This document shows, one piece after another, positions 16,716 through 44,409 of a stretch of 64,000 bases of DNA. The DNA lies in the IMG/VR virus record IMGVR_UViG_3300032167_000069. The stretch is one strand, 5' to 3'. Under the pieces are notes generated by a model, which saw only the letters and a program-made list of their open reading frames with translations, was not told the origin of the DNA and ran no database searches. The DNA is from a virus. Taxonomy: Duplodnaviria > Heunggongvirae > Uroviricota > Caudoviricetes. Position 1 is the stretch's first letter. Every line of letters starts with the position of its first letter. The position numbers and the translations under genes were made by a program.

Positions 16716-16725
16716 TCACTCTCTC

Positions 16726-18466: not shown

Positions 18467-18475
18467 ATTCTTACC

Positions 18476-19348
18476 TCACTCAAAATTTATTAGTGTTTCA
18501 ATATAATCTCTTTCCTCGCCCTTAAAAATAGGTATATCATTGTCGATAACCCAATGAGCTCTCTCTCCATTTTCTCCAATAGTATTCTCTGGCTTTCTTA
18601 TACAACAACTACCCCTTTTCTTATGAACAGGTAAATCGTTCCAATTTATACCCTTTTGTTCCATAAGCATATCCTGTATGTTACTACAGGTTTTATTATG
18701 TAATTCATTGTGCGAAAAATATGCTTGTCCTAACATTTGAATGCTATTTCGTGAAGCGTCGAGTTGTCTCCAGTAAATAAGATTTGTCACTTCTTCTTTT
18801 GGTATATTGAAGCAACGTGCATCGAACATAGCACCTTTGAGTATTGCTCCTCGTAAAACACTCATATAATCATTGTGACGTTGTTGCATCTCAACACTTT
18901 GAGGAGTTAAGCCGTTTTTCCAGTTCAAATCATATTCTCTTACATTATCTACAAAGAACTTATTAAATGCCATAGTTGCCATGCTTGCGGAGATACTGCA
19001 CATTTTCTGAACCTCATAATCAAACCAAGCATTTGTAGTTAATTTTTTATAATCGACCAATATTAAAGTTATCTCATCGGATTGAGTATAACCCAAAACA
19101 CAACCCTGTATATGCTCACACAGATATTGCATTGTTTCCTGCATCGACTTAATCAAAATATCATCAAATGGCTTAGCAAAGCCTCTTGTAAATGTGTGAA
19201 ACGCTTTGCCGTCAATTCTTATTGCAACTGGTGTGCGTCTCATTAATTTTGTTTTTGGAATTGTCTCATAAAATTCTTTCATTCGACATCCAAGTTCGTC
19301 GTGTACTGGCATATGTATCCTCCTTTTACGGAATAATATAATCAACAA
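18476..19348 (-). CDS. Thg1-like protein (tRNA-His guanylyltransferase family, 3'-5' polymerase)
   Basis: VAIRIDGKAFHTFTRGF matches the Thg1 signature (RIDGRxFH.F). Confidence 0.55.
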   Translation of the reverse strand: MLIILFRKRRIHMPVHDELGCRMKEFYETIPKTKLMRRTPVAIRIDGKAFHTFTRGFAKPFDDILIKSMQETMQYLCEHIQGCVLGYTQSDEITLILVDYKKLTTNAWFDYEVQKMCSISASMATMAFNKFFVDNVREYDLNWKNGLTPQSVEMQQRHNDYMSVLRGAILKGAMFDARCFNIPKEEVTNLIYWRQLDASRNSIQMLGQAYFSHNELHNKTCSNIQDMLMEQKGINWNDLPVHKKRGSCCIRKPENTIGENGERAHWVIDNDIPIFKGEERDYIETLINFE

Positions 19349-19526
19349 CTGAATTATCGGCTACAGGACAGATAATCTCTTCGCTATAATCTTCGTAAAC
19401 AGATCGTTCAGCAAGCTGCCTTGCTTGTGAGGGGGTGGTTTGACTCAACCAATCTTGCACAGCTTCTTCAGACTTACCTTCAACAAATAATTCAACTGTG
19501 TATGATAATTTTACTTTATACTTCAT
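19326..19526 (-). CDS. Hypothetical protein
   Basis: ORF of 66 aa. Confidence 0.3.
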   Translation of the reverse strand: MKYKVKLSYTVELFVEGKSEEAVQDWLSQTTPSQARQLAERSVYEDYSEEIICPVADNSVVDYIIP

Positions 19527-19547
19527 AACTTTTACCTCGTCCTTATA

Positions 19548-29989: not shown

Positions 29990-30200
29990 ATGTTAACTAA
30001 TGGTGTCTGTTATGTGGATAACTGCTTGGTTTCTTCTGACTTATCCCACTCACCTTTCTTCCCCTCGCCGAGTTCATCGAGCTTCTTTACGTGCCCAGTG
30101 TGAACCGTGCAGTCACCTGCGGGTGCAGGGGAATTCTTTTCCGCCAGCAAAGTGTTACTTCGGCTGACAACACAAAGCGCCTGTAAAAACAAGACAATAC
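29990..30200 (-). ncRNA. Structured GC-rich ncRNA locus A. A paralog of the RT-adjacent ncRNA, sharing a conserved module of about 45 nt.
   Basis: On the plus strand at 30138-30185 it reads ttcttttccgccagcaaagtgttacttcggctgacaacacaaagc. Near-identical modules occur at 34216-34262 and 35150-35192. A GC-rich hairpin-rich unique segment follows. The region is ORF-poor, and the ORF 30010..30285 is just a translation of the repeat. Confidence 0.45.
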
Positions 30201-30211
30201 ATTGTAAAGTT

Positions 30212-30301
30212 TGGCGGAGAGTAGAGGACTCGAACCTCTGCCCCGGATAAACGGGGAACGGTTTAGCAAACCGTGGCAGTACCAACTATGCTTAACTCTC
30301 C
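30212..30301 (-). tRNA. tRNA-Ser (GCU)
   Basis: Acceptor ggagagt/actctcc, anticodon arm acggt-ttGCTaa-accgt, long variable arm, T-arm, CCA. Confidence 0.7.
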
Positions 30302-30463
30302 ATATTGGCTCTTAGGTCAGCCAGCCGCACATCTTAACCCGAAAAATACTGGGGTTGGAATTTGCTCCCAAACAGCAGACTATTGCGAACTTGTGGTCTG
30401 CCAGCACGACTCATTTAATTTCTCCTCTATAGGATGCGGCACAGTGACATAACTGTGCAGTAC

Positions 30464-30551
30464 TGGCGGAGGGTCAGAGACTCGAACTCTGAAGCCCTTG
30501 CGGACTCGGCAGTTTTCAAGACTGCTGCCTTACCAATTAGGCTAACCCTCC
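30464..30551 (-). tRNA. tRNA-Ser (UGA)
   Basis: Acceptor ggagggt/accctcc, anticodon loop ctTGAaa, long variable arm, CCA. Confidence 0.65.
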
Positions 30552-30716
30552 ATATGGAAGCTTCCCCCGTAGGGAGGTATTACCAACCCACTTGCAAGTT
30601 TGCTGCTTTTTTAATTTAACCCATCCTAAAGCACCTGAAACACTGGGCATCCCGTGAAACCTTTTTTGAGGTGTCACCCTCGGAGTGGAGTACGGGCAAC
30701 GACAATCTCTCCCGAC

Positions 30717-30792
30717 TGGTCTGAGTAGCAGGTCTCGAACCTGCGACCTCGTGTTCCCAAAACACGTGCTCTACCAACTGAGCTATACCCAG
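30717..30792 (-). tRNA. tRNA-Pro (UGG)
   Basis: Canonical D-arm gctcagttggtagagc, anticodon arm cgtgt-ttTGGga-acacg, T-arm gcagg-ttcgaga-cctgc, CCA. Confidence 0.75.
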
Positions 30793-30800
30793 ATATATAA

Positions 30801-30874
30801 GTGTAGACTGACGACTTGAACGTCACCCCTCGACTAACACGAGACTCAGTACTCCCAATTATACGAAGCCTACA
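30801..30874 (-). tRNA. tRNA-like element (degenerate; D and anticodon arms not resolved)
   Basis: T-arm tgacg-ttcaagt-cgtca. Acceptor tgtaggc/gtctaca with a G-U pair. Confidence 0.3.
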
Positions 30875-30877
30875 CTT

Positions 30878-30964
30878 TGGTGCCGCTGACCGGACTTGAA
30901 CCGGTACGGTATTACTACCGAGGGATTTTAAGTCCCTTGTGTCTGCCAATTCCACCACAACGGC
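30878..30964 (-). tRNA. tRNA-Leu (UAA)
   Basis: D-loop gtggaattggcagacac, anticodon arm aggga-cuUAAaa-ucccu, long variable arm, T-arm, CCA. Confidence 0.7.
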
Positions 30965-30967
30965 ATA

Positions 30968-31044
30968 TGGTTGCGGGGGTGGGACTCGAACCCACGACCT
31001 CCAGCTTATGAGGCTGGCAAGCTGACCATCTGCTCTACCCCGCA
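30968..31044 (-). tRNA. tRNA-Met/fMet (CAU)
   Basis: Acceptor tgcgggg/ccccgca, anticodon loop ctCATaa, T-arm gtggg-ttcgagt-cccac, CCA. Confidence 0.7.
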
Positions 31045-31049
31045 ATATA

Positions 31050-31132
31050 TGGTGCCCGTAGCAGGACTCGAACCTGCACTCTCACGAACTGGTTCCTAAG
31101 ACCAGCGTGTCTGCCAATTCCACCATACGGGC
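31050..31132 (-). tRNA. tRNA-Leu (UAG)
   Basis: Acceptor gcccgta/tacgggc, anticodon arm ctggt-ctTAGga-accag, long variable arm, T-arm gcagg-ttcgagt-cctgc. Confidence 0.7.
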
Positions 31133-31166: not shown

Positions 31167-32795
31167 TTATTCGTCGTCTTCAACAACGTCAGTTTCTTCA
31201 ACTGCAATACCATAAGGCACGTCGCTTTCTTCGCACTCATAGTATCCTTCGTTAACTACTGCCTCATTATACTCTCCGCTTTCGGTTGCATCTAATGATG
31301 TATCATCTTTTGAACCACCAAAAATTCCCTTGAGAGGCTCAGCAAAACCCTTAACTAATTCCTGAATTTCGCCACTAAAAGACTGACCATTTAACGCCTT
31401 GTTCTCAACATCAAGCTTCTTCATCATACTGGGAATGCTGGAAAGTGTGTCAATTAAAACGTTTCCAGTTGCACCCTGAGCACTGCTACCACCGATATTT
31501 ACGAATTCTGCATTCTTACCGATGTCAGCCATAATCTGGGCTGTCTTTGTTGCAATTTCAATACGAGCATTAGCTTCAATCTTTAAACGCTCAATCTCAA
31601 AGTTAACCTTGTCATTTCCGGCACGAGCTTCAGCAAGAGCTTTTTCACCTTCGGCTTTTGCAAACAACATAGCCTTTTCTGCTTCAGCTTCCGCAGCACC
31701 CTTTTTGGCAATAATCTCAGCTTCAGTTTCACCCTCAACTTTAATTCTGTTAGCATTTGCCCTCGCTTCCTCTTCGATAGCTTTTGCCTTACCTTTTGCC
31801 ACCTGCTCCATAACCTTAGCTTCCGCCTCTGCGTTGATTGTGGCAACTCGTGCTTCCTCTTCAGCCTTGATTTCTGCCCTTACTCTCTCAGCCTCAGCCT
31901 TTGTTTTGATAACTTCTTTCTCTTTTACAGCCGCAAGATTAGCCTGTTCCTGTCTTACAACAGCCACACGACCTTCCTGTTCTGCAATTTCCTGCAACCT
32001 TACAGTTCTCTGGAGTTCACCAGCGATTTCAGCATCCGCATTTGCCTTGTCTGTTTCAGCCTTAAACTCTGCCTTTTTCAAACTGTTATCTCTGTTCTTT
32101 TCAGCAATCTGAAGCTCAGTATCGAGTTCGCTTTGTTTTGCAGCCTTTTCAGATTCAGCATTCTGCTGTCTAATCTGCTGATTTGCAGTAGCTTTTACTT
32201 TTTCGGCTTCTTTTCTCTTTTCTTCACGGTCAATCGCTGCGATATCATCATAATATCCATACTTATCCGTAATATCCTGAATGTTAAGCGATACAAGCTC
32301 AAGACCCATATCTGTCAATTCATCACTTACAGATTCAACAATTGCTTCCTTAAATGTTTCTTTGTCGTTCTGTACCTGTTCAGGTGTCATACTTGCAACA
32401 ACACTTCTTACAGAACCCATAAGCGTGAGCTTAACATCCTCAATAATACCTCTCTGTCCTCTTTCCTTAAACGAAACAATCGCTTTCTTTAATACATCGA
32501 GGTCTTTTGTGTTAGGTCTAATCTGAGCTGTCCAGTCAACGATAATCGGCACAGATGTTTTTGTCTTAATCTCATCTCCGTCAGTTGGAACTGTTAACAT
32601 ACACAAATCAAAGTATGATGCTTTTCTGAAAATCGGGATAACGAAGCTACCGCCAGAAACCTTGATTTTAGGCTCTTTTCCGCCTGTGATAATTAACGCT
32701 TTGTCAACATCTGCAACTTTGTAGATGCAACAAAGAAAAATAATAAGTGCCGCAAGAATACCAAGTGAAATTCCACCGTAAATTAAAAACTGCAT
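31167..32795 (-). CDS. SPFH/band-7 (flotillin-like) membrane protein with a long Ala/Glu-rich coiled coil
   Basis: An N-terminal TM helix, then an SPFH-like core, then an EA-rich coiled-coil repeat region and an acidic tail. It lies directly downstream of the RT on the same strand. Confidence 0.55.
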   Translation of the reverse strand: MQFLIYGGISLGILAALIIFLCCIYKVADVDKALIITGGKEPKIKVSGGSFVIPIFRKASYFDLCMLTVPTDGDEIKTKTSVPIIVDWTAQIRPNTKDLDVLKKAIVSFKERGQRGIIEDVKLTLMGSVRSVVASMTPEQVQNDKETFKEAIVESVSDELTDMGLELVSLNIQDITDKYGYYDDIAAIDREEKRKEAEKVKATANQQIRQQNAESEKAAKQSELDTELQIAEKNRDNSLKKAEFKAETDKANADAEIAGELQRTVRLQEIAEQEGRVAVVRQEQANLAAVKEKEVIKTKAEAERVRAEIKAEEEARVATINAEAEAKVMEQVAKGKAKAIEEEARANANRIKVEGETEAEIIAKKGAAEAEAEKAMLFAKAEGEKALAEARAGNDKVNFEIERLKIEANARIEIATKTAQIMADIGKNAEFVNIGGSSAQGATGNVLIDTLSSIPSMMKKLDVENKALNGQSFSGEIQELVKGFAEPLKGIFGGSKDDTSLDATESGEYNEAVVNEGYYECEESDVPYGIAVEETDVVEDDE

Positions 32796-32864: not shown

Positions 32865-34019
32865 TCACGATAAATCCCCCTTTATTAGCTTTTCTATGTC
32901 TGCGCCAAACTTCTGGTTATTATGAGAAATAACATAGTTTATATAATCTGGCTCAATCATTCTATAATAGGAAATAAGCCCAGCAAATACTTGTACGTCG
33001 TGCCTATCCCAATTAACGTTTTTCTTTTTGTCGCAAATATAATTGCAACACATAGCTTTGAATGCTTTTTTCTTTTGATGACCAATGGTTATCTCGTTAT
33101 CTTTGTTAAGCATAACACCCAAATTCCAGTTCCGACCAGCGGATGAACCGTATCTCGTTTTTTCTTTTTTGATTGCAAATGGAGCATCAAATCTTTTCAG
33201 AACATCGAGAACATATTCCTGCACCGCTTTGTAATCAAAATTCACTTTTGATGAAATCAAAATATCATCAGCATATCGTGTGTAAACAAAATGCTCGTCC
33301 ATCTTCCTTAAATCATTACAAAGTTGATGGTCGATTGGAATCATCATAATATTGGTGATTGTCGGCGATATAGGTGTTCCCTGTGGCAAACCGCCGTTTA
33401 AAAAACAAAGACTCAAAGCTCTTTTTAAGGCTTCGAGTCCATTTCTTCTTTTCACTATTTCACTAAACGGGAATATTTTTGAAAACATTGATAACACAAA
33501 CTCCTCTGTTGTGCTACCAAAAAAGTCCGAGAAATCAAGTTTTGCGAACCATTTACTTTCGTTCTGCTGATGTCTCTTAATTGAGTCAATTGTGCATCTA
33601 CCTTTTACATATGCAAAAGCAGATGTATGATACAATGCAAACATATTCTTTTCAAAAATAGTTTTCAAATTACGCAATGCATTCATCAATTCAGGTACAG
33701 GTGCATTAATTTCTCTCAAACCGCCACTTTTCTTTGGTATATGGAACGTTTCATACAGCGACTTCCTATCTACCTCAAATAAATTTGCATATTGAGAATT
33801 AAACTGTTCAAGAGCATAAATCATTGCGTTAAAATTGAATTTATCAAGAAATTTTTCGTTTAACTGCTCTCTGTAATGTGTTCTTGTGTTTGTTACATTG
33901 GGCACAATCATTCTTGATACATCAACCGCACCCGCCAGAATATCATCTAATGATAACTGATAATATATTGGCGATTGTTGAATTGTTACATAAGGCATAC
34001 TAATTCTCCTTTCGTACAT
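32865..34019 (-). CDS. Reverse transcriptase, retron/Abi-like type (not DGR type)
   Basis: IPKKSGGLREINAP (RT motifs 1/2), AKLDFSDFFGS (motif 3), GLPQGTPISP (motif 4), YTRYADDILISS (motif 5, YADD). KTRYGSS...NLGVMLN...IGHQKKKAF follows the pattern of the retron region after YADD. AYVKGRCTIDSIKRH sits at the NAxxH position. At 384 aa it has no maturase or endonuclease domain. Confidence 0.75.
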   Translation of the reverse strand: MYERRISMPYVTIQQSPIYYQLSLDDILAGAVDVSRMIVPNVTNTRTHYREQLNEKFLDKFNFNAMIYALEQFNSQYANLFEVDRKSLYETFHIPKKSGGLREINAPVPELMNALRNLKTIFEKNMFALYHTSAFAYVKGRCTIDSIKRHQQNESKWFAKLDFSDFFGSTTEEFVLSMFSKIFPFSEIVKRRNGLEALKRALSLCFLNGGLPQGTPISPTITNIMMIPIDHQLCNDLRKMDEHFVYTRYADDILISSKVNFDYKAVQEYVLDVLKRFDAPFAIKKEKTRYGSSAGRNWNLGVMLNKDNEITIGHQKKKAFKAMCCNYICDKKKNVNWDRHDVQVFAGLISYYRMIEPDYINYVISHNNQKFGADIEKLIKGDLS

Positions 34020-34059: not shown

Positions 34060-34290
34060 GATGCTAAGCTTTTGCTGGTAACTTGGTCATCAGTGAGATG
34101 AGAGTTCATCTGATGAAAACCCAGTATTTATGCGGTATTTCTCTATTGATGGATTTGGGCAGACCTGTCGGGAAGCGTAAGCCACGGCTGTGGGTGATTG
34201 CCATCCTGAGCTGTCTCCCTGTGTTTTTCTCCAGCAAAGTGTTACTTTGGCTTATAACACAAAGCATCTGAAAACTCAGATTATTCATTA
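34060..34290 (-). ncRNA. Structured GC-rich ncRNA locus B, immediately upstream of the RT start (retron msr/msd-like position)
   Basis: Conserved module at 34216-34262. Inverted repeats cttttgctgg (34069-34078) and ccagcaaag (34221-34229) bracket about 160 nt. Several GC hairpins are present. The ORF 34106..34288 is a translation of the repeat. Confidence 0.5.
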
Positions 34291-34305: not shown

Positions 34306-34545
34306 TTATTCATAACATTCATCTAAATCCTCATTGTCTATATTCACCTCTGAGTTGTCTTGTTCTACGTGAATATAGCAATAGGAATCTCCGCATATTG
34401 CAATTTTTGCTTCTGGCGGATAATTATTTAATTGTTCGATTAACTGTTTTACAGTTGTGTTTGGCAAGAAAACTTTTCTGTTTGCATCATACATATCATC
34501 TCTCCTAAATTTCATCAATATCGCAAGTCCATTGACGCCATTCAA
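34306..34545 (-). CDS. Hypothetical small protein
   Basis: 79 aa, between ncRNA loci C and B. Confidence 0.35.
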   Translation of the reverse strand: MNGVNGLAILMKFRRDDMYDANRKVFLPNTTVKQLIEQLNNYPPEAKIAICGDSYCYIHVEQDNSEVNIDNEDLDECYE

Positions 34546-34873
34546 ATCTCAAAAACTTCTGAATAGCTTCTTCGAGCGAATCAGCCTCGATAACTTTAGT
34601 CCACATATGGCTACCTATCAAAACTTCATCGTATCTTTTAGGTTCATCGCATACTACAATATCGCCGATGCGTTTCTCTGGAGTGTAACAACCTTTAGTT
34701 TCAGCGGTATAATATGCAATTAGGCGAGTGTTTAAGTAAAATTCACTTCCATAATATCCACAGAAACTTCCACGTCCATCAGTTTTGCACTGTTCAAACA
34801 GCCCAATTAAACTGTTTTCATATGCAACCTTTTTAACAGAGTCGTCATAAAACTTATTTACATAAAACTTCAT
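34505..34873 (-). CDS. Hypothetical protein
   Basis: 122 aa. Confidence 0.4.
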   Translation of the reverse strand: MKFYVNKFYDDSVKKVAYENSLIGLFEQCKTDGRGSFCGYYGSEFYLNTRLIAYYTAETKGCYTPEKRIGDIVVCDEPKRYDEVLIGSHMWTKVIEADSLEEAIQKFLRFEWRQWTCDIDEI

Positions 34874-35039: not shown

Positions 35040-35222
35040 GAGAATTTATCGACATAAGGACTTGACAAAGCACGCAATGACCTGTAGTGGAGGTGGTAGC
35101 ACCCGGCATCGGGCTCTGGAGGCGTCATCGCCGTCCCCTTCTTTTCGCCTATCAAAATATCACTTCGGCTGACAACACAAAGCATTTGAAATTAATCAAA
35201 TAATGCATCGTAGGTGTTTATG
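35040..35222 (-). ncRNA. Structured GC-rich ncRNA locus C, immediately 3' of the CLec-like gene stop. Shares the conserved module.
   Basis: cttttcgcctatcaaaatatcacttcggctgacaacacaaagc at 35150-35192, then a unique GC-rich hairpin segment. It shares an 11-nt identity (cccgatgccgg) with the VR-like region of the upstream gene. Confidence 0.45.
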
Positions 35223-35224
35223 GT

Positions 35225-36106
35225 TTATATTGTTAATATTGAAAAAAGTTCTTCTTCAGACACATCTTCGTACACGATTTCAGTTTGGATTACATCATAA
35301 TAACCCATATCGTCTGGTTCGTCACTTATAAGGATTTCAGGATTGATTTTCAAAGCGGGACGGACACCCAAAATGCCATCATACGCACTGCAATAGTAGT
35401 AATCACCGCCACGACTGACGTACCTGACGCCGCAACCACCGCCGGCATCGGGAGAACGGAGCAAATAATACCAGTTCTCGTCATATTCCACTTCTTCATC
35501 AACATTAGAATATTCTACGGCGTAATCAGTGGGCATAGCGGCTCTATCTGCATTTATTTCATTTTTAAAATATTCCCAGTAATCACCTTCGGACACGTTT
35601 CTTATTGTTCCACCGTACAAATTGGTGTATGAAGGCAGAAATACCTTTCTGGTTATTACGTCAAGTCGCTCATCTTCACGGGTCACTTCGCAATCAGGAA
35701 GTGCCGTCATTACCGTAGAATCATCTATTGCATCAATTTCCCAGCCCTCAAAAAATCTCAAGAAGCCGTGATGATTTGCATATCCTGTGTTTCCTGAAAC
35801 CAAATTTCCTGTGGGTGGCTCATCGTATTCGTGGCGTTTAATAAAGCATTCATCATCGCTACTGTTTAAAAACTGGTCGATATTTGATACCGAGTAGCGA
35901 TTATTACCATAACGCTGACGATAAGCATCGGGGTTTTCCACTTCTCTCGCATCGAATGCACGGAAATCCTCAATCCTTTCTGACATAAAGGTATTATCTC
36001 CGTTTACCTTTATCCAAGTAATCTTATGAGTACCCTCATCGCCAATACTATACGCACCAAAACGCACCTTTTCGCCAACATTGAGTTCGCTTATTCTTCG
36101 TGCCAT
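35225..36106 (-). CDS. CLec/FGE-fold protein with a DGR-variable-region-like C-terminus (putative receptor-binding/adhesin-type protein)
   Basis: The C-terminus NWYYLLRSPDAGGGCGVRYVSRGGDYYYCSAYDGILGVRPAL resembles FGE/CLec-type DGR target ends (LRS...RGG...GxRP/C.). It is Y/S/G-rich. Confidence 0.5.
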   Translation of the reverse strand: MARRISELNVGEKVRFGAYSIGDEGTHKITWIKVNGDNTFMSERIEDFRAFDAREVENPDAYRQRYGNNRYSVSNIDQFLNSSDDECFIKRHEYDEPPTGNLVSGNTGYANHHGFLRFFEGWEIDAIDDSTVMTALPDCEVTREDERLDVITRKVFLPSYTNLYGGTIRNVSEGDYWEYFKNEINADRAAMPTDYAVEYSNVDEEVEYDENWYYLLRSPDAGGGCGVRYVSRGGDYYYCSAYDGILGVRPALKINPEILISDEPDDMGYYDVIQTEIVYEDVSEEELFSILTI

Positions 36107-36128: not shown

Positions 36129-36800
36129 TTAAAAAGCATCGACAGTATGACCAAAAGCATCAATTAAAATCAACTTACTGATACTGCCACCTTTTGCAAA
36201 ATTTATAAAATTAGATACACCGTGGGCAACAATCATTCTAACCGTCGGAACAACAGAAAGAGTCATATTACAAGCTGACACAGGTGTTTCGGCTTTTGCT
36301 TCTTCGTGAGTAAAAGCCATAGATTTAAGGAAATCTTCAACCATCTTCTTATTCTTCCAGTCCGCAGCATAATGCTGAGCGTCTGTAAGTCTCATACGGA
36401 AATCGAACATAGCTTTTACATAAGGATTGTCCTTGCAACTTTCCGCAATTTCACGTCTCAAATCAATGTTATCAACACAGAGGAAAACATAGCCAGACAA
36501 CTTCTGCCCTACATATCCTTTGTCAACAAGCTTGATTTCCTTTTTTACTTCAGGGTTGATTTCGTAAAGCATATCTGCCAATGCCTCAACCTTTGTTTTT
36601 CCGATATCAACCTGTCTGAACATCTGATTCGCAATGTTGTGTGGTTCTACGTGGTCAAAATCATAAAGAGTTATATTTGTGAGACCAAATCTGACAAGAT
36701 TTTCTGCGACCGTAGAGCCGATTGCACCACAGCCTATAATGTGTAATCTTTCTTTGCACATTTCAGGCTGAAAAAATTCATATGATTTTGCTAAATCCAT
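36129..36800 (-). CDS. ThiF/MoeB-family E1-like adenylyltransferase
   Basis: IIGCGAIGS is a Rossmann nucleotide loop. LYDFDHVEPHNIANQ fits E1. At 223 aa it is a minimal E1. Confidence 0.6.
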   Translation of the reverse strand: MDLAKSYEFFQPEMCKERLHIIGCGAIGSTVAENLVRFGLTNITLYDFDHVEPHNIANQMFRQVDIGKTKVEALADMLYEINPEVKKEIKLVDKGYVGQKLSGYVFLCVDNIDLRREIAESCKDNPYVKAMFDFRMRLTDAQHYAADWKNKKMVEDFLKSMAFTHEEAKAETPVSACNMTLSVVPTVRMIVAHGVSNFINFAKGGSISKLILIDAFGHTVDAF

Positions 36801-36812
36801 ACCCTCAACTCC

Positions 36813-37703
36813 TTATGTATCAAATCTGTCCTGACGATAGATATCATAAGCCTCATCTTCCATATCCTCAGAACCTCTGTTTTTCCAACCACTACCAACA
36901 TTAGATTTACCCTGCTGGTGTTGGTTTACTTTAGGCTTTTCCTTATCTTTTCCGGTGCTCGGTGTGTTATTTGCAGGCTTTGTACTACCGTTATACCCAC
37001 CATATCCACCGTTATAACCGCCATAGCTTTTTCCACCATAACTATACCCAGTTACAACCGTTGTCTTCTTTTTAACCTGCTCTTTTGCTTCCTCAACAAA
37101 AGCATCAAGGTCGTATCCGTCACCAAGAATGCCATACGAAATATCCTTGTTTTCATACAAAGTGTTGTTCTGGAGATCGTAAATCTTTGTGTTATTCTCC
37201 AGTTTCTTGTTCCAAATCATAAAAATATAATACATATCATCTGTAAGCTGAGCGAGAATGCTCTCCTGATGATTTGTATCAACCGCAGACGGTGTGGTGC
37301 CGAAATTTACGTGGCTATGACCCTGCATAATGATGTGATTAAAACGTTCATCTTCAATGTTGTCCATAATCCATTTAGCATACGCTTCTGTGTCCATTTC
37401 AACCGTAGAGCCCGTTACCGTCTGAGGATACACAACAAGGTCTGAAATAAGGAAGTTTGCACCCTCAATGCGCTCACCGACACCGTGCCAAGCAACCTCT
37501 GAATCAAAAGACATAAGTAATGCAATCATTTTTGAATAAGCTTCCGGTGTAAAGAAGATTGTTGCTTTTTCATCTTCTTTATATGTAAAATTCTTATTGT
37601 AGCTGATTTTTCCATCAGCCATTTTTGTTCCAGCAAGTGTTTTTGCAAACTCTTCAAGTGCCTGTTTCTTTAACTCTTCTGTGAGTTTAATAGGTTTTGC
37701 CAT
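36813..37703 (-). CDS. JAMM/JAB (MPN+) metallopeptidase with a Gly/Tyr-rich C-terminal tail
   Basis: HSHVNFGTTPSAVD carries the HxH...S..D JAMM motif; an upstream E is present. The tail is GYSYGGKSYGGYNGGYGGYNG. Confidence 0.6.
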   Translation of the reverse strand: MAKPIKLTEELKKQALEEFAKTLAGTKMADGKISYNKNFTYKEDEKATIFFTPEAYSKMIALLMSFDSEVAWHGVGERIEGANFLISDLVVYPQTVTGSTVEMDTEAYAKWIMDNIEDERFNHIIMQGHSHVNFGTTPSAVDTNHQESILAQLTDDMYYIFMIWNKKLENNTKIYDLQNNTLYENKDISYGILGDGYDLDAFVEEAKEQVKKKTTVVTGYSYGGKSYGGYNGGYGGYNGSTKPANNTPSTGKDKEKPKVNQHQQGKSNVGSGWKNRGSEDMEDEAYDIYRQDRFDT

Positions 37704-39166
37704 TATTTTTCGACCTCCTGTGCTTCATTTTCCTGTTCCTGACTTAAAAGCCAGTTATATGCTTCTGTAGGCGTGCAAGATGTTCCATCGGGAAGCTGAA
37801 TTACAGCCTTACAACTTGATGTGAACAATCTACCCATAAATGGTGCAACCGTCTGTGAGCCCTCTGACAAATTGAGGTTTTTCGCAGATGATACACACTG
37901 TTCTATAGCAGCGATATAATCGCCTTTTGCTAAAAGCTGGTCTATGAGCGGTCTGTTATTTCCGATACAAGCATGGAAATCAAAATGAGGATTTGTTAAA
38001 TAGTCATTATATTCCATCGGATAATCATATCTCTGTATCGTATCAACTCTACCACGCATATCTAAATCGTAGTACGCACGTACTTTAATCTTTAATAATG
38101 GTTCATCGCCAAAAACAGCATCGAGCAATTTCTTTCGAGCTGCTTCTTCGTAAAAAGCTTCCGCAGAAACATTATAACCAGTAAACAAATAGCTTCTCGA
38201 ATTTTTCGTCATACGCTCGTACATCTCAGGATCATAATTTTCAATAGTTGTACCAACAATGATTTTTATGTGCTGATTGTCAACATATATTGGGTTAATA
38301 TGTCTGTTACAAACAAAGTAATCAACAATTTCCGAATCATTGCCAGCTTCTTTTATCTGATAAGCCAAGCCACTCTCTTTAATACGAAGATTATCCATAT
38401 TTTCAATCATATTCTGATAATCTGCCATTAAACGTTCCATTCTTGACTGCTGATTTGCAATTTCATTCTTTACAACATCCAACTGTCTCTGTTTTGCTCT
38501 GGCTTCAAACCCGCCGAGCAATTTCTGTATCTGTGCAGTTCTGAAGTCATATTTTGATGCAAACTCCTCAATAATTCTCTCATATTCAGGAGCATAACGG
38601 TTGGTGAGTGCTTTTACGAGAGCCTTTTCTTCTTCATTGATAGGATTCTCTGCGAAATACCACGGCACCAACCTTGAGATAAGCGACTGTATAAAGTGCC
38701 AAATTCTTGTATTAAGACACGCAACAAATATTGCGACGCTTTTCTCTTCCTCATTTATATAAAAACGAACATTTGCCTGCTTTGCAACGAATACGTGAAG
38801 GTCTTCCAATTCTGTAAATTTAGGATAGACCTGTGTAAAATGACTTTCAATCTTATTGAAAGATGTAGTAATACTGCTTTCTGTACCATTGAAACCGCAA
38901 ACAAAGATCGTGTTATTGCCTATGCCATCTGACAGAATTCTTACTATATCCTCATCAGAATAATCTCTCAATGAGGAATCTCTGTCATTTCTAACCTTAA
39001 CATTTAATGAAATGTGTTCCTTTTTCTTCATTCTTGGAGCTAACAAAGCTCTGAGTGTCGCAAGAAACGAATTATCACCGTTAAAAGTTGCGCCCACAAT
39101 GTTAGGAAACATTTCGTTTGCAATTTCGTTTGTCAGAGTCAGTCCATATAATTCTTTATTAAACAT
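37703..39166 (-). CDS. Hypothetical 487-aa protein in the Ubl-E1-JAB operon (possible E2-like or accessory; unassigned)
   Basis: ORF translationally coupled to the JAB gene; no motif recognised. Confidence 0.45.
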   Translation of the reverse strand: MFNKELYGLTLTNEIANEMFPNIVGATFNGDNSFLATLRALLAPRMKKKEHISLNVKVRNDRDSSLRDYSDEDIVRILSDGIGNNTIFVCGFNGTESSITTSFNKIESHFTQVYPKFTELEDLHVFVAKQANVRFYINEEEKSVAIFVACLNTRIWHFIQSLISRLVPWYFAENPINEEEKALVKALTNRYAPEYERIIEEFASKYDFRTAQIQKLLGGFEARAKQRQLDVVKNEIANQQSRMERLMADYQNMIENMDNLRIKESGLAYQIKEAGNDSEIVDYFVCNRHINPIYVDNQHIKIIVGTTIENYDPEMYERMTKNSRSYLFTGYNVSAEAFYEEAARKKLLDAVFGDEPLLKIKVRAYYDLDMRGRVDTIQRYDYPMEYNDYLTNPHFDFHACIGNNRPLIDQLLAKGDYIAAIEQCVSSAKNLNLSEGSQTVAPFMGRLFTSSCKAVIQLPDGTSCTPTEAYNWLLSQEQENEAQEVEK

Positions 39167-39280
39167 CGTACTGCCTCCTGCTTATATTTTTTGTCAACCC
39201 CAGATTTTCGGGGTAATAAAAAGCGGATGCCTCTGAGTGAAGCATCCGCCATACCACGAATTATTTATATGTATTGCGAC

Positions 39281-39511
39281 TTACGCAGCGTTGTCAGCCT
39301 TAACAACGTTAAGGAGATAACACTTCTCAGTAATTCCGTGCTGAGCAAAAGTCTTATCGAGATCGCCGGGGTTAAGTGAAGAACCGTCAAGATGCATTAC
39401 ACCACTTGTGTAATCAATGCCGTTATCCTCAAGCACCGCTCTTAAAGTTGTGTTTTCGTCAACAATAACTGCTTCTCTTCTTGTGTTATTACCAATAGTT
39501 ACCTTAATCAT
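39281..39511 (-). CDS. Ubiquitin-like beta-grasp protein (ThiS/MoaD/Ubl-like), 76 aa, with no terminal GG
   Basis: MIKVTIGNNTRREAVIVDENTTLRAVLEDNGI...LDGSSL... has a ThiS/Ubl-like pattern. Its size and its position at the head of the E1/JAB operon agree. Confidence 0.45.
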   Translation of the reverse strand: MIKVTIGNNTRREAVIVDENTTLRAVLEDNGIDYTSGVMHLDGSSLNPGDLDKTFAQHGITEKCYLLNVVKADNAA

Positions 39512-39589: not shown

Positions 39590-39982
39590 TTACATTACAG
39601 TAATGTTCTCACGTACTTCTGCCTTTTCAGCTTCAACACCTTCAAGTGCATCTTCAAACTGCGCTTCAACCTTATTAAGCTTGATAATCGCATTGCCGAT
39701 TACATCTTCAGCGTATGCTGCTGCGTCTGCTGTGTCTGCGGGAATTCTCATTGTGATAATAGCTTTCTTCTCACCGTTCTTAGAAACGCTTCCGAAGCTT
39801 GCGCCATATCCGTTGATGTTACCCTCGCCTGCTGTTGTGCCAACCTTAAAAACAACTTCTTTGCCGTCTTCGCTGTAAAGGCAAAGTGCCTTCGGGCGAT
39901 GCTTTTCAAGTGTCTTCAAAGTTTCAAGTGTGTGTGCCGATTCGATGACCATAGCGTCACCAGCGATTAAAATTTTTGCCAT
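39590..39982 (-). CDS. Hypothetical protein
   Basis: 130 aa. Confidence 0.4.
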   Translation of the reverse strand: MAKILIAGDAMVIESAHTLETLKTLEKHRPKALCLYSEDGKEVVFKVGTTAGEGNINGYGASFGSVSKNGEKKAIITMRIPADTADAAAYAEDVIGNAIIKLNKVEAQFEDALEGVEAEKAEVRENITVM

Positions 39983-40117
39983 AATAGGCTCCTCCTTTAT
40001 TGAGCTTTCGCTCGTTCATTTATGTATTCCATTAGCTATTCCTTGCGGAATATTGCCCACCCCAAACCACGTGGCGGTTGGAACCATATGGGGCTACCCA
40101 GCTAAATGCTGGGCATA

Positions 40118-40401: not shown

Positions 40402-41964
40402 TTACCCCCTCAAAACATCTTCGATTGGCTGGTATCTTTCCGAGTTGATTGTTTCAAGTAAACATTCATACGGGTCTGTCTTTCCGCTCATAACCATTTT
40501 ACAAATATTTACCGAAAATCCACTCACGAGAGCAACGCCCAGCTTGTTACTTCTCACCGGAATTGTTCCCGTTCTTGAATTAACATTCCAGAAAACAAGC
40601 CTTGGCAATTCATAGCCAACCTGCTTATATCTTGCACCAATTACATCGAACAACTTATCGTTTTTAATTGCATAGTCGCAATTATATCTTCCGCCGTGTC
40701 CAACAGTTGCACAACCATCAAATTCCATATCAGAAATAATCAGGATGTTCTTCGGCATATCTTCCTGTGCCATATTGTTATTAACCGCAGTTTTCAAAAT
40801 TAAGTCAAATACTGCTTCGATATTTGTATTGGCAACTTCGTTATGCTGAGCCGCAATAGCCAATTTATCTCTCAGGCTATTAGCGTGTCCAAAGTCAACC
40901 AATTGTGGACGTTCAGAGAAAGTAATATATTTATCTTTTAGGCACCCCGAAGACCTTTCTGCGAAATATACAGCCAAGCTGTTAGCAACTTCAAGAGCCG
41001 TTACATTTGTGCCACCTACTGTTGTTCTCATAGAACCAGAACCATCAGCTACAACAATTGTGTTTCCGCAACCCTCAACCATATCAGGAAGATTGTTCCA
41101 GAGAGCTTCAACAGAAGCATCATAATCCTTTAACTGATTTCCATAGTATCCGTAACTACCAGCATAATACTTGTGAACAATGTCGTGCGGATAAAGTGTT
41201 GCCGCATTGATTTTTGCTTCGCCATTTTCAATTTTGCCGAGAAACTCTCTTCTTCTTTCCTCGTCGTTTCTTAAAAAGGCATTATTATAAATAAGGTTTG
41301 CACGTGACGGAACCGTTTCATAGTTGATTTCGCCCCACTGCTTTGCAGACATCTTAATTTCGACAACATCAATGTGTTTGCGAAGCTTACTCAAAAGCTT
41401 ACGATAGTCAGCCTCTTTGATATCTAAGTGCTTACGAATTATTTTTGAAAGTTTTTTACTTTCCTCTGAAGACGCATTTGCTGACGGAAGCCATTTTGCT
41501 AACAATGAGATTGGCTTGCCATTTTCGCACCCCTCGACGTCAGCTTTAAGCTGTTTCTTTATGTATTCAATAACCGCACCGCAAAGTTTTTCGTTTTCAA
41601 GGAAAACCCACAAATCATCGAATCTTCCGTATTCTGCAACAAGCGGAATAAGCTTTTCGGCAAAATCGGATTCGTATTCAGCAACAAATTTCATCGCCGT
41701 TCTGAACAATCTACGCTCACCCAAACCACCACGGACATCTCTTGCAAAGAAAAGCCATTTCATAGCAAGGATTTTATCCTCAAGAAATGCTGCCGCAAAC
41801 TTCTTTGCAATACCCTCTTCGCTTGCTGAACGCAACGATGCAACCGCAAAATTGATGTCAAGCAAATTCTTGCCGGTTGTTTTATAACCAAGTGCACCGT
41901 TTTCTGTTGTGGATGTGTTGAAATCTTCAAGTGCAGTTTCTTTTAACTTCTCAATAAATGACAT
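40402..41964 (-). CDS. Helical N-domain + C-terminal vWA (MIDAS) protein; Ro60/Rsr-like (TROVE-like + vWA) architecture
   Basis: A C-terminal vWA domain with a MIDAS motif (TIVVADGSGSMRTT ... ILIISDMEFD). An N-terminal helical domain of about 330 aa. Total of 520 aa, matching Ro60/Rsr domain order and size. TROVE identity was not verified. Confidence 0.45.
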   Translation of the reverse strand: MSFIEKLKETALEDFNTSTTENGALGYKTTGKNLLDINFAVASLRSASEEGIAKKFAAAFLEDKILAMKWLFFARDVRGGLGERRLFRTAMKFVAEYESDFAEKLIPLVAEYGRFDDLWVFLENEKLCGAVIEYIKKQLKADVEGCENGKPISLLAKWLPSANASSEESKKLSKIIRKHLDIKEADYRKLLSKLRKHIDVVEIKMSAKQWGEINYETVPSRANLIYNNAFLRNDEERRREFLGKIENGEAKINAATLYPHDIVHKYYAGSYGYYGNQLKDYDASVEALWNNLPDMVEGCGNTIVVADGSGSMRTTVGGTNVTALEVANSLAVYFAERSSGCLKDKYITFSERPQLVDFGHANSLRDKLAIAAQHNEVANTNIEAVFDLILKTAVNNNMAQEDMPKNILIISDMEFDGCATVGHGGRYNCDYAIKNDKLFDVIGARYKQVGYELPRLVFWNVNSRTGTIPVRSNKLGVALVSGFSVNICKMVMSGKTDPYECLLETINSERYQPIEDVLRG

Positions 41965-42076
41965 AAAAAATCCTCCTTTTGATTTATATAAAATCCCAAG
42001 ACGGATTTCTGAATAATAGATTAAAAGTCTACTCCAAAAATGATTGCTGTTACCGTCTTTAGGATTTTTTATTATA

Positions 42077-42224
42077 GGTGGGGATGGTAGGATTTGAACC
42101 TACGAAATCTTCTTGATTTACTGTTTTATGAAAAAGATTGCTGTTGGTGTCAAACTAAACACCTTTCATTAGACAATTTCCTTCAGCCACTTGGATACAT
42201 CCCCAAATATTTAATTATCATCCT
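42077..42224 (-). ncRNA. Oversized tRNA-like ncRNA (about 148 nt) with class-II D-arm, T-arm and acceptor, plus an internal insert carrying the AACAGCAAT motif
   Basis: Acceptor ggggatg/catcccc, D-arm tcc-aagtggctgaa-gga, variable hairpin aaatc-aagaa-gattt, T-arm gtagg-ttcaaat-cctac. The insert contains the ggtgtttagtttgacacc hairpin followed by aacagcaat. Confidence 0.5.
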
Positions 42225-42449: not shown

Positions 42450-42571
42450 TGGTGAGGGTGGCAGGACTCGAACCTACGACACACGGCTCCCAAAGCATTA
42501 AGAATATTGCTGTAAGCGTTTATCACTAAACACATTCTTATACGTTGCTCTGCCAACTGAGCTACACCCTC
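42450..42571 (-). ncRNA. Oversized tRNA-like ncRNA (122 nt) with the GTGATAAAC...ACAGCAAT insert
   Basis: Acceptor gagggtg/caccctc, canonical D-arm gctcagttggcagagc, T-arm, encoded CCA. A 45-nt structured insert (helix taagaat/attctta; hairpin gttta-gtga-taaac; acagcaat) replaces a normal anticodon arm. Confidence 0.5.
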
Positions 42572-43776: not shown

Positions 43777-44167
43777 AAAAAGCTTTTATAATCCCAAATT
43801 ATATGCATTAAATATTGCTGCGTGTGTCTTTAAAAGGTATATATCAATCCGCAAATGCGGTTATTGTTGAATGTTGGGTAAGTTTTTGCTTACCCGACGG
43901 AATTTCACCGTCCCATTACTCTAAAACCCGACCACCCATTACATAATCTACGAAAAGTTATGTAAAATGCCTTTGAGTAAATTGAACTTCACAAAAATTA
44001 GAAACGAGAGGCTAAAAAGTTTCAGAAAGGAGATGCTACTTCTTAGACCAAAAGAAGTATTTGCGCTGTGTTATGCCAAAAACTGACAGCAAAGCAAAAT
44101 CAAAAAATTTGTAAATTTGATAATATGTTTTATTATGTATTTGCTGTAAGCCTCTCTTATATGTTGA

Positions 44168-44286
44168 GCGGCGGGTGAGAATCGAACTCACGACACATAG
44201 TTTGGATTCTTGAAAAAATCGCTGTTAGTGAAGTTTATCACTCCACATTTTTTCGACTATTATTCTACCATCTGAACTACCGCCGC
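44168..44286 (-). ncRNA. Oversized tRNA-like ncRNA (119 nt) with the GTGATAAAC...ACAGCGAT insert
   Basis: Acceptor gcggcgg/ccgccgc, D-arm gttcagatggtagaat, T-arm gtgag-ttcgatt-ctcac. The insert has an 8-bp helix gaaaaaat/attttttc, then hairpin gtggag-tgataaa-cttcac, then aacagcgat. Confidence 0.5.
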
Positions 44287-44290
44287 ATAA

Positions 44291-44409
44291 GGTGCCCAGA
44301 GTTGGACTCGAACCAACGACCACGGAGTTACCAGCTCAATATAAAGTTGCAGTTTAAGGCTTTTTCAAACCTCAATTATTACGTGCTCTACCGACTGAGC
44401 TATCTGGGC
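44291..44409 (-). ncRNA. Oversized tRNA-like ncRNA (119 nt) with the GAAA-tetraloop hairpin plus AACTGCAAC insert
   Basis: Acceptor gcccaga/tctgggc, canonical D-arm gctcagtcggtagagc, T-arm gttgg-ttcgagt-ccaac. The insert is aggttt-gaaa-aagcct followed by aaactgcaac. Confidence 0.5.

What the first reader, a model, noticed from the sequence alone, without database searches (positions are those of the whole stretch)
36129..39511. Phage-encoded ubiquitin-like conjugation-type operon next to the putative adhesin and the RT
Co-directional and tightly coupled genes encode a 76-aa beta-grasp Ubl, a 487-aa unknown protein that could be an E2-like partner, a JAMM peptidase and a ThiF-like E1. Bacterial Ubl/E1/E2/JAB systems are known to target phage tail proteins. 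A phage-borne version placed directly upstream of a receptor-binding-like CLec protein suggests the phage modifies its own adhesin. A sulfur-carrier (ThiS/MoaD-like) role is also possible. The Ubl lacks a C-terminal GG, so JAB processing or a non-canonical terminus would be needed. The association with an RT and ncRNAs is not something I know from described systems.
Basis: inference. Interest (0 to 1): 0.75.

Follow-up and report, generated by a model that had tools for sequence, protein, structure and literature searches.

The report
Phage ubiquitin-like conjugation module with RT
A large gut/rumen phage carries its own ubiquitin-like tagging kit (tag, activating enzyme, E2-like carrier, trimming protease, a fixed partner protein), always next to a reverse transcriptase. 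Such kits were so far described only as bacterial anti-phage weapons.

Summary
On the minus strand lie p130 (39982..39590), a 76-aa protein (39511..39281), a 487-aa protein, a JAMM/JAB peptidase and a 223-aa E1.

- **Peptidase and E1:** the JAB has a complete JAMM motif (nearest solved relative Rpn11). The E1 has a conserved Cys (nearest UBA1).
- **p130:** relatives encode Ubl-p130 and Ubl-Ubl fusions joined exactly after Asn-Ala. This implies JAB processing and makes p130 an obligate partner.
- **Census:** the order p130-Ubl-E2like-JAB-E1-(DUF6273)-RT recurs in about 75 phage contigs. A new structured RNA hairpin flanks the RT.
- **Not supported:** the adhesin-target and DGR ideas.

Most likely this is a phage-encoded, Bil-like Ubl conjugation pathway. 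Its target is unknown. It is a new variant of a known kind.

The parts
39590..39982 (-). p130: a 130-aa protein of unknown fold, the obligate partner of the Ubl and a candidate substrate or cofactor
   Evidence: It lies directly upstream of the Ubl in all loci. In 35 of the best 150 Ubl representatives it is fused behind the Ubl, with the junction ...K-A-D-N-A|A-K.... It has no Pfam or PDB match. The family occurs only standalone or fused to the Ubl.
39281..39511 (-). Ubl: a 76-aa ubiquitin-like beta-grasp protein whose C-terminus is ...K-A-D-N-A plus one extra Ala
39222..39250 (-). Terminator-like hairpin between the Ubl stop and the start of the 487-aa gene
   Evidence: 12-bp stem with 7 G-C pairs, followed by TTTTTATT. 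tRNA genes occupy this position in L005 and L016.
37703..39166 (-). E2L: a 487-aa protein with two alpha/beta domains joined by a long helix (220-273); predicted E2-like carrier with Cys400
36813..37703 (-). JAB/JAMM metallopeptidase (296 aa) with a Gly/Tyr-rich C-terminal tail; predicted Ubl-processing and deconjugating enzyme
   Evidence: E69, H129-S-H131, S139 and D142 are conserved in 26 homologues. Rpn11 1.4e-5. PADLOC JAB 7e-5. Its start overlaps the E2L stop by 1 nt.
36129..36800 (-). Minimal E1-like adenylating enzyme (223 aa) with conserved Cys177
   Evidence: Pfam ThiF 1.3e-24. It is below all NCBIfam cut-offs for ThiF, MoeB and PRTRC. GCGxxGS, DxD and TPVSAC are conserved in 23 homologues. 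Best PDB hits: UBA1 1.7e-12, MoeB 4e-10.
35225..36106 (-). DUF6273 protein (293 aa), an optional accessory gene of the array
   Evidence: Pfam DUF6273 6.7e-19. phrog_10993 'Hoc-like' 7e-43. Resembles the N-terminal domain of an IgA protease, 9qa6, 4e-6. Absent from many complete cassettes. No DGR repeat.
35057..35191 (-). Structured RNA motif, copy 2 (conserved hairpin plus AAGUAACAAnUUG)
   Evidence: nhmmer 1.5e-23. The hairpin has compensatory changes in 6 of 9 pairs across 41 sequences.
34153..34274 (-). Structured RNA motif, copy 1, about 130 nt upstream of the RT start
   Evidence: nhmmer 4.1e-20. Same hairpin. A copy lies upstream of the RT in most related loci.
32865..34019 (-). Retron-type reverse transcriptase (384 aa), a conserved last gene of the array
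   Evidence: NCBIfam retron St85 2.2e-53 (181 bits, cut-off 235). PADLOC RT_II-A 3e-50. Present after the E1 in every viral locus long enough and in MT835544.1. 44-84% identical across loci.

Best explanation
This is a phage-encoded ubiquitin-like protein conjugation pathway that works like the bacterial Bil system but is built from different parts.

Proposed steps:
1. The 76-aa Ubl is made in excess together with p130, in a separate upstream unit closed by a terminator-like hairpin.
2. The JAMM peptidase trims whatever follows the conserved C-terminal Asn-Ala. In this phage that is one Ala. In relatives it is a whole p130 or a second Ubl.
3. The minimal E1 adenylates the exposed carboxylate and probably takes it onto Cys177.
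4. The Ubl is passed to Cys400 of the dimeric, two-domain 487-aa E2-like protein. Its fast-evolving non-catalytic parts would choose the target.
5. The JAB can also reverse the modification.

The target is not established. p130 is the best candidate; its N-terminus is what the natural fusions join to the Ubl. A host protein is the alternative, because the module sits in the phage's counter-defence/host-takeover arm.

Shown: the folds, motifs, fusions, gene order and conservation. Inferred: adenylation, thioester transfer, the cleavage site, the target, and any functional link to the neighbouring retron-type RT and its RNA motif.
For: - Ubiquitin-like conservation pattern: Ubl 55-87% identical where E2L is 25-50%.
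- Conserved C-terminal x-N-A, tolerating only small residues (N/G/S/A then A/G), followed by 0-4 variable residues.
- Natural Ubl-p130 fusions and head-to-tail Ubl-Ubl fusions joined exactly after N-A. The fusion cassettes (seen in L037, L084-L086, L088-L090) still carry E1, JAB and E2L. Cleavage is therefore needed to free the C-terminus.
- Complete and conserved JAMM motif, with Rpn11 as nearest solved relative.
- E1 with conserved nucleotide-binding motifs and Cys177. It is closest to UBA1 and below the ThiF/MoeB family cut-offs.
- Fixed gene order in about 75 loci.
Against: - No sequence method recognises the 487-aa protein as an E2. Foldseek against the PDB finds nothing (best E 0.38).
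- The Ubl ends in Asn-Ala, not Gly. No E1 is known to me that activates such a terminus.
- The E1 is a bare 223-aa adenylation domain. It lacks the inactive adenylation domain, the mobile Cys domain and the zinc site of Bil and eukaryotic E1s. Architecturally it looks more like ThiF/MoeB.
- No target, no conjugate and no expression data exist.
- All loci come from one phage lineage, so conserved order may partly reflect shared ancestry.
Confidence: 0.6

Rival explanations
1. Sulfur-carrier system. The E1 adenylates the Ubl, which is then converted to a C-terminal thiocarboxylate. This donates sulfur in a reaction catalysed with p130, in the manner of MoaD-MoaE or ThiS-ThiG. The JAB only matures the carrier, as in the QbsE/QbsD or CysO/Mec systems.
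For: - The E1 is a minimal ThiF/MoeB-sized adenylation domain, and its best NCBIfam hit is ThiF (5e-23).
- A small beta-grasp protein fused or paired 1:1 with a roughly 130-aa partner recalls MoaD-MoaE.
- JAB plus E1 plus Ubl sets without an E2 are known in sulfur pathways (Iyer et al. 2006).
Against: - The terminus is Asn-Ala rather than the Gly-Gly of known carriers.
- The module has no rhodanese, cysteine desulfurase or PP-loop partner.
- The E1 is far below the ThiF/MoeB cut-offs and scores better against UBA1.
- p130 has no similarity to MoaE, ThiG or any family.
- It does not explain the always-present 487-aa protein with an invariant Cys and a UBC/RWD-like fold, nor the poly-Ubl fusions.
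Confidence: 0.12
2. The activated Ubl C-terminus is joined to something other than a protein. One option is a nucleotide or small molecule by MccB/PaaA-type E1 chemistry. Another is the RNA/cDNA product of the neighbouring RT, which would make the Ubl module and the RT one machine.
For: - The RT and a covarying RNA hairpin accompany the cassette in nearly all loci.
- The E1 also matches MccB (7e-7) and PaaA (2e-5).
- The penultimate residue is usually Asn, which is the residue MccB acts on (own knowledge).
Against: - Position 74 tolerates Gly, Ser and Ala, and the last residue is Ala or Gly. This fits a 'small flexible tail', not Asn-specific chemistry.
- MccB's peptide-clamp domain is absent (223 aa).
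- RT adjacency may be lineage synteny, since MT835544.1 shares other genes with the window.
- L019, L035 and L036 have the cassette without an RT within reach.
Confidence: 0.08
3. One reading: the pathway conjugates the Ubl to the phage's own DUF6273 'adhesin' encoded just downstream, to modify the virion surface.
For: - The DUF6273 gene is translationally close to the E1 (22-nt gap).
- It matches a PHROG annotated as Hoc-like head decoration and the N-terminal domain of an IgA protease.
- Bil systems do target virion proteins (abstract of 10.1101/2023.09.04.556158, listed).
Against: - The gene is missing from many complete cassettes, for example L005, L023-L026, L029-L033 and L076-L083.
- The module lies in the early/accessory arm with NAD-salvage and tRNA-repair genes, on the opposite strand from the arm that carries the terminase.
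- No fusion or other link ties the DUF6273 protein to the Ubl, whereas p130 has one.
Confidence: 0.07
4. There is no conjugation. The Ubl and p130 form a non-covalent assembly or chaperone pair that needs only JAB cleavage, as proposed for lambda tail assembly proteins I and K. The E1 and the 487-aa protein would have unrelated roles.
For: - Ubl plus JAB pairs without conjugation are proposed for lambdoid tail assembly.
- The p130-Ubl pair is a separate, probably highly expressed unit and is duplicated in some phages.
Against: - The E1 and E2L are co-conserved with the Ubl in every locus, with intact catalytic motifs.
- There is no NlpC/P60 domain and no tail-module context.
Confidence: 0.05

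Closest known systems
BilABCD (bacterial ISG15-like) anti-phage ubiquitination systems, types I and II
   Same: - Four-part logic: a beta-grasp Ubl, an E1, an E2 with a catalytic Cys, and a JAB peptidase that pre-processes the Ubl C-terminus.
- BilA is a top-3 structural match of the Ubl, with 23% identity.
- BilB is among the structural matches of the 487-aa protein.
- One-residue or longer C-terminal caps that must be removed also occur in BilA.
   Different: - It is encoded by a phage, not by the host.
- The Ubl ends in Asn-Ala, not in a conserved Gly.
- The E1 is a single 223-aa domain without an inactive adenylation domain, Cys domain or zinc site.
- The E2-like fold is embedded in a 487-aa two-domain, coiled-coil protein.
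- Extra obligatory partners: p130 and, nearly always, an RT.
- No HMM-level relationship was found.
Type II CBASS Cap2 (E1-E2 fusion) and Cap3 (JAB)
   Same: The E1 Rossmann region matches Cap2-type models (PADLOC E1-E2 5e-19; Cap2 PDB 1e-6). The JAB matches CBASS-type JAB models.
   Different: There is no CD-NTase substrate. The E1 and the E2-like protein are separate. A dedicated beta-grasp Ubl is present. The matches cover only residues 11-90 of the E1.
ThiF/MoeB-ThiS/MoaD sulfur-carrier systems, including JAB-assisted ones (CysO/Mec, QbsE/QbsD)
   Same: A minimal E1 of similar size, a small beta-grasp carrier, a JAB that trims the carrier, and carrier-partner fusions.
   Different: There is no Gly-Gly and no sulfur-transfer enzyme. 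The E1 is below the family cut-offs. An additional Cys-bearing UBC/RWD-like protein is present.
ThiF-like plus metalloprotease gene pairs annotated in crAss-like and Flavobacterium phages
   Same: They are phage-encoded E1-like genes (27-32% identical to this E1) lying next to a JAMM-motif protein.
   Different: They sit in the replication module. I detected no homologue of the Ubl, p130, E2L or RT there. Their function is also unknown.
Retrons (RT plus ncRNA plus effector)
   Same: The RT is retron-type by HMM. A structured RNA lies just upstream of it.
   Different: The RT scores below the curated cut-off. No msr/msd-like RNA with flanking inverted repeats was identified. The RNA motif occurs in 2-3 copies on both sides of the RT. 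I know of no retron type with Ubl/E1/JAB effectors, and the literature searches were negative.

Membership tests
BilABCD ubiquitination system | Beta-grasp Ubl | tested here: met
BilABCD ubiquitination system | Universally conserved reactive C-terminal glycine in the Ubl | tested here: not met
   The family consensus terminus is x-N-A, with Gly only in rare variants.
BilABCD ubiquitination system | E1 with an inactive adenylation domain, an active adenylation domain and a mobile Cys domain, and a Zn site | tested here: not met
   The E1 is 223 aa with a single ThiF-type domain and no CxxC pairs.
BilABCD ubiquitination system | UBC-fold E2 with a catalytic cysteine | tested here: inconclusive
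BilABCD ubiquitination system | JAB/JAMM peptidase that processes the Ubl | tested here: met
   The motif is complete and conserved and Rpn11 is the nearest solved relative. Processing is inferred from the fusions, not shown.
CBASS type II (Cap2/Cap3) | CD-NTase gene and an E1-E2 fusion protein | tested here: not met
   No CD-NTase hit in the module. The E1 is separate and matches Cap2 models only over residues 11-90.
PRTRC (ParB-related, ThiF-related cassette) | Proteins reaching the TIGR03736 (ThiF) cut-off, plus PRTRC proteins A, B and C | tested here: not met
   TIGR03736 scores 35.5 bits against a cut-off of 144.75. The other cassette proteins have no PRTRC hits.
ThiF/MoeB sulfur-carrier pathway | E1 reaching the ThiF/MoeB equivalog cut-offs; carrier of the ThiS/MoaD family ending in Gly-Gly | tested here: not met
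   PRK08644 scores 81.9 against 159, TIGR02356 66.3 against 275, and TIGR02355 52 against 377. The Ubl has no ThiS/MoaD Pfam hit. Its terminus is N-A.
Diversity-generating retroelement | DGR-type RT plus a template/variable repeat pair in a target gene | tested here: not met
   No repeat of the DUF6273 gene anywhere in the window. The RT matches retron and group II models and carries QGTPISP and YADD.
Retron | Retron-clade RT with an adjacent msr/msd ncRNA | tested here: inconclusive
   The RT scores 181 bits against retron St85, below the 235 cut-off. A covarying hairpin lies upstream. No msr/msd architecture was shown, with fold z-scores of -1.0 and -1.4.
Lambda-type tail assembly Ubl (TAPI) with TAPK | Ubl next to a JAB plus NlpC/P60 protein inside the tail gene module | tested here: not met
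   There is no NlpC/P60 domain. The module lies among NAD-salvage, tRNA and RNA-repair genes on the opposite strand from the arm that carries the terminase.

The most novel reading that the evidence does not exclude
A lineage of large gut and rumen phages runs its own complete ubiquitin-like conjugation pathway with a non-Gly (Asn-Ala) Ubl. It makes 'linear' N-terminal conjugates: Ubl-p130 and Ubl-Ubl, the same products that relatives encode as gene fusions. The pathway is functionally coupled to a retron-type RT and a new structured RNA. Together they form one seven-part counter-defence or host-takeover machine with no described equivalent.
Probability: 0.2. Interest if true: 0.92.

Novelty: new variant of a known kind. 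Interest (0 to 1): 0.8.

Why it matters
Ubiquitin-like conjugation in prokaryotes has so far been described as a host weapon against phages (Bil, CBASS Cap2/Cap3, Bub). A conserved, complete-looking pathway encoded by the phages themselves would show that the virus side uses the same chemistry.

Three features stand out:
- **Conservation:** the Ubl is the most conserved gene of the module, as ubiquitin is in eukaryotes.
- **Fusions:** it occurs as poly-Ubl and Ubl-partner fusions, as ubiquitin genes do.
- **Terminus:** it ends in Asn-Ala. This would widen what E1 enzymes and JAMM peptidases are known to accept.

The constant company of a retron-type RT and a new RNA motif offers a testable link between two system types that have not been connected. 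The system is small (five or six genes) and could be reconstituted in E. coli.

Tried and rejected
- **DNA search:** blastn of the region against 50,697 phage records found nothing.
- **Family searches:** Pfam, NCBIfam, PHROGs and PADLOC gave nothing for the Ubl, the 487-aa protein or p130.
- **PDB sequence searches:** nothing for the Ubl, the 487-aa family or p130.
- **Foldseek against PDB:** nothing for the 487-aa model, best E 0.38. The afdb50 library was unavailable.
- **hhalign, p130:** against the Ubl profile it was not significant, so the idea that p130 is a second beta-grasp is untested.
- **crAss-like phage neighbours of ThiF:** not detectably related to E2L or the JAB beyond the JAMM motif.
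- **The search for related loci:** The single Ubl was used instead.
- **DGR reading:** rejected. No TR/VR repeat and a retron-type RT.
- **MccB-like Asn chemistry:** considered and down-weighted, because position 74 tolerates Gly, Ser and Ala.
- **RNA upstream of the RT:** single-sequence folds were not better than shuffles. A global alignment of these regions was uninformative. Only the iterated nhmmer search found the short conserved hairpin.
- **Independence of MT835544.1:** rejected as an independent element, because it shares NAMPT and other genes with the window.


Full report
**What is there.** Between 36129 and 39511 the minus strand carries four real genes:
- a 76-aa protein at 39511..39281
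- a 487-aa protein at 39166..37703
- a 296-aa protein at 37703..36813, whose ATG overlaps the preceding stop by one base
- a 223-aa protein at 36800..36129, after a 12-nt gap

The 293-aa DUF6273 gene follows after 22 nt. The window belongs to a phage. It encodes a terminase large subunit, NAMPT, NAD synthase, a PRPP-synthetase-like protein, DNA and RNA ligases, Thg1 and more than eight tRNAs. Strand composition flips near 50 kb. The module therefore lies in the accessory/early arm, on the opposite strand from the arm that carries the terminase. The identical proteins are on record from a sheep-rectum Ruminococcus MAG.

**The four components.**

*E1.* It matches Pfam ThiF at 1.3e-24. It reaches no curated NCBIfam cut-off: ThiF 81.9 against 159 bits, MoeB 52 against 377, PRTRC ThiF 35.5 against 145. 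Its best solved relatives are eukaryotic UBA1 (1.7e-12), ahead of MoeB, MccB, Cap2 and ThiF. GCGxxGS, DxD and a TPVSAC motif with Cys177 are conserved in 23 homologues.

*JAB.* The 296-aa protein gives only weak HMM hits. It nevertheless carries a complete JAMM signature, E69...H129-S-H131-x7-S139-x2-D142, conserved in 26 homologues. Its nearest solved relative is the proteasomal deubiquitinase Rpn11.

- Spc24/25
- Ubc12, UBE2F, Pex4, FANCL

The C-terminal domain has the order a-b-b-(helical insert)-b-b-loop-Cys-a-a-a. In 71 distinct family members down to 23% identity, H394, C400 and N432 are invariant and N392 is 70/71. The motif N-P-H-x5-C has the same Asn-to-Cys spacing as the HPN...C of canonical E2s. 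That local alignment is not significant by itself, and Foldseek finds nothing. I therefore call the protein E2-like with moderate confidence only.

**The module is larger than reported.** An exhaustive search with the Ubl found 517 cluster representatives. Of the best 150, 35 are proteins of about 200-245 aa in which the Ubl is followed by a homologue of the 130-aa protein encoded just upstream in the window (39982..39590). Two are head-to-tail Ubl-Ubl proteins.

The junction is always right after the conserved terminus. An example is ...K-A-D-N-A|A-K-V-M-V-V-G. Standalone p130 proteins begin M-A-K-(I/V)-x-I-A-G. The fusion therefore equals Ubl(1-75) plus p130 from its second residue.

Standalone Ubls mostly stop exactly at Asn-Ala (98 of 120 close homologues). 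The rest add 1-4 variable residues, and the window's copy adds one Ala. Position 74 accepts N, G, S or A. Position 75 accepts A or G. This is a small, flexible dipeptide in the place of Gly-Gly.

The fusion-type cassettes inspected still encode E2L, JAB, E1 and the RT. The C-terminus must therefore be freed by cleavage, for which the JAB is the obvious enzyme. p130 itself matches no Pfam family and no solved structure. It is found only alone or behind the Ubl.

In the window a 12-bp terminator-like hairpin separates the p130-Ubl pair from the enzyme genes. In relatives tRNA genes sit at that place. This suggests that the pair is made in excess of the enzymes (inference).

**Census.** I searched public genomes and IMG/VR with the Ubl and then scored all ORFs with the window proteins. 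This gave 26 MAG contigs (mostly Clostridia bins from gut, rumen and termite gut) and 52 viral contigs of up to 137 kb.

Wherever the contig is long enough, the order is p130-Ubl (or the fusion)-E2L-JAB-E1-(DUF6273, optional)-RT. Some phages carry two or three p130/Ubl copies (L002-L004, L035, L036, L089).

Identity to the window copy, by component:

| Component | Identity to window (%) |
|---|---|
| Ubl | 55-87 |
| E1 | 51-87 |
| RT | 44-84 |
| JAB | 36-68 |
| p130 | 33-74 |
| E2L | 25-50 |

The modifier is the most constrained gene and the putative target-choosing enzyme the least. This is the pattern expected of a ubiquitin-like system.

**The RT and RNAs.** The RT is retron-type: NCBIfam retron St85 2e-53 (below cut-off), PADLOC RT_II-A 3e-50, with QGTPISP and YADD motifs. 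It is not a DGR. The DUF6273 gene has no repeat anywhere in the window.

The RT follows the E1 in every viral locus long enough, and in the most distant relative found, MT835544.1 (E2L 23% identical). That record shares NAMPT and other genes with the window. It is therefore a distant member of the same phage lineage, not an independent element. Conserved order is suggestive of functional coupling but is not proof. Three loci lack an RT within reach.

An iterated nhmmer search starting from a 58-nt repeat found 138 copies of an RNA motif in 59 loci. There are usually two or three per locus, on the coding strand, before and after the RT. Its core is a hairpin followed by AAGUAACAAnUUG. Of 9 predicted pairs, 6 show compensatory changes in 41 distinct sequences. 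Rfam has no match.

**Mechanism.** The best-supported reading is a phage-encoded Ubl conjugation pathway of the Bil type:
1. The JAB exposes Ala75.
2. The E1 adenylates it and probably holds it on Cys177.
3. The Ubl moves to Cys400 of the dimeric E2-like protein.
4. It is then transferred to a target.

The natural Ubl-p130 and Ubl-Ubl fusions mimic linear (N-terminal) conjugates, much as polyubiquitin genes mimic Met1-linked chains. The p130 N-terminus is therefore my first candidate acceptor (speculative). A host protein is the alternative, given the neighbourhood of NAD-salvage, tRNA-repair and Ro/TROVE genes.

Rivals:
- A sulfur-carrier pathway. It is favoured by the minimal E1 and the MoaD/MoaE-like pairing. 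Against it are the terminus, the absence of any sulfur-transfer enzyme and the conserved Cys-bearing E2-like protein.
- Ligation to a non-protein acceptor, possibly the RT product.
It is weakened because DUF6273 is dispensable in many cassettes.
- A non-covalent chaperone role.

**Comparison and novelty.** It works like BilABCD, but three Bil features are tested and not met, so I do not file it there:
- no conserved Gly
- no multidomain E1
- it is phage-encoded, and there is no HMM relationship

It is also not CBASS Cap2/Cap3, PRTRC, a ThiF/MoeB pathway, a lambda TAPI/TAPK pair or a DGR.

E1-like plus JAMM pairs are annotated in crAss-like and Flavobacterium phages. These lack detectable Ubl, E2L, p130 and RT homologues.

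Full-text searches for phage-encoded Ubl, E1 or JAB systems, or for RT plus Ubl systems, found nothing relevant. The library is incomplete, so prior description cannot be excluded.

I rate it a new variant of a known kind, of high interest.

**Limits.** There is no biochemical evidence. The E2 assignment rests on weak fold matches plus an invariant motif. All loci come from one phage lineage.

Noticed in passing
window 35057-35191, 34153-34274 and 30112-30188 (all minus strand); 138 copies in 59 related loci: An undescribed structured RNA motif: a hairpin GCUUNN-GCC-AAA-GGC-N'N'AAGU followed by AACAAnUUG and a variable GC-rich 3' part. There are usually 2-3 copies per phage, flanking the RT gene on the coding strand. 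Six of 9 pairs show compensatory changes. Rfam has no match.
   Followed up: partly
window 40023-40096 (minus); L005 8935-9004: A candidate HDV-like self-cleaving ribozyme directly upstream of the p130 start codon. It matches Rfam HDV-F-prausnitzii (34.8 bits, E 0.004) and HDV_ribozyme (41.4 bits), both below the gathering scores. The same position upstream of p130 gives a hit in L005.
   Followed up: partly
window 40402-41964 (minus), with 42076-42204, 42453-42571, 44167-44286 and 44293-44409 (minus): A TROVE/Ro-like protein with a vWA domain (DUF2828 plus DUF7788; phrog_850 'RNA-binding protein'). Upstream lie unusually long tRNA-like RNAs (117-120 nt, missed by ARAGORN) and a tmRNA-like fragment. 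A weak YrlA (Y RNA-like) hit sits at the equivalent place in L017. This may be a phage Ro/Y-RNA module.
   Followed up: no
L005, L012, L016 and L017 (related phages): These phages are dense in tRNAs and ribozyme-associated RNAs. Above the gathering score: RAGATH-36, RAGATH-16 and skipping-rope. Below it: twister-P1. In L005 and L016, tRNA genes are inserted between the Ubl and E2L genes, so operons seem punctuated by RNA-processing sites.
   Followed up: no
window 36813-37703, residues about 218-296 of the JAB protein: The JAMM peptidase ends in a Gly/Tyr/Asn-rich low-complexity stretch (GYSYGGKSYGGYNGGYGGYNGS) followed by a charged tail. This part is not conserved in sequence among homologues.
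   Followed up: no
window 34306-34873 (minus): Two small overlapping ORFs (122 aa and 79 aa) lie between the DUF6273 gene and the RT. They have no homologue in any related locus and no family match. A copy of the RNA motif precedes them.
   Followed up: no
window 31167-32795 (minus) and 30212-31132 (minus): Immediately downstream of the RT lie a 542-aa SPFH/Band-7 (flotillin-like) membrane protein with a long Ala/Glu/Lys-rich coiled coil, then a cluster of six tRNA genes.
   Followed up: no
window 15987-27438 (minus): An NAD-salvage and RNA-repair set that looks like a counter-defence arm: NAMPT (20355-21842), NAD synthase (15987-16715), a PRPP-synthetase-like protein (26650-27438), Thg1 (18476-19348), an ATP-dependent DNA ligase (16726-18036) and an AAA/STAND-like ATPase (22862-23986). 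An RNA ligase lies outside this range at 3956-5035.
   Followed up: no
L002-L004, L035, L036, L089: Some relatives carry extra p130/Ubl copies. L002-L004 (recorded as Acutalibacter muris) have a second p130+Ubl pair about 2 kb downstream of the RT. L035 and L036 have two tandem pairs. L089 has one p130, two Ubl-p130 fusions and one Ubl in a row.
   Followed up: partly
L009 (crAss-like phage cr111_1) 3433-6663; L010 (Flavobacterium phage FpV4) 3554-6624: crAss-like and Flavobacterium phages have a trio in their replication module: an unknown protein of about 420 aa, a JAMM-motif protein of about 415 aa, and a ThiF-like E1. It may be a distant analogue, with no detectable Ubl or E2L homologue.
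   Followed up: partly
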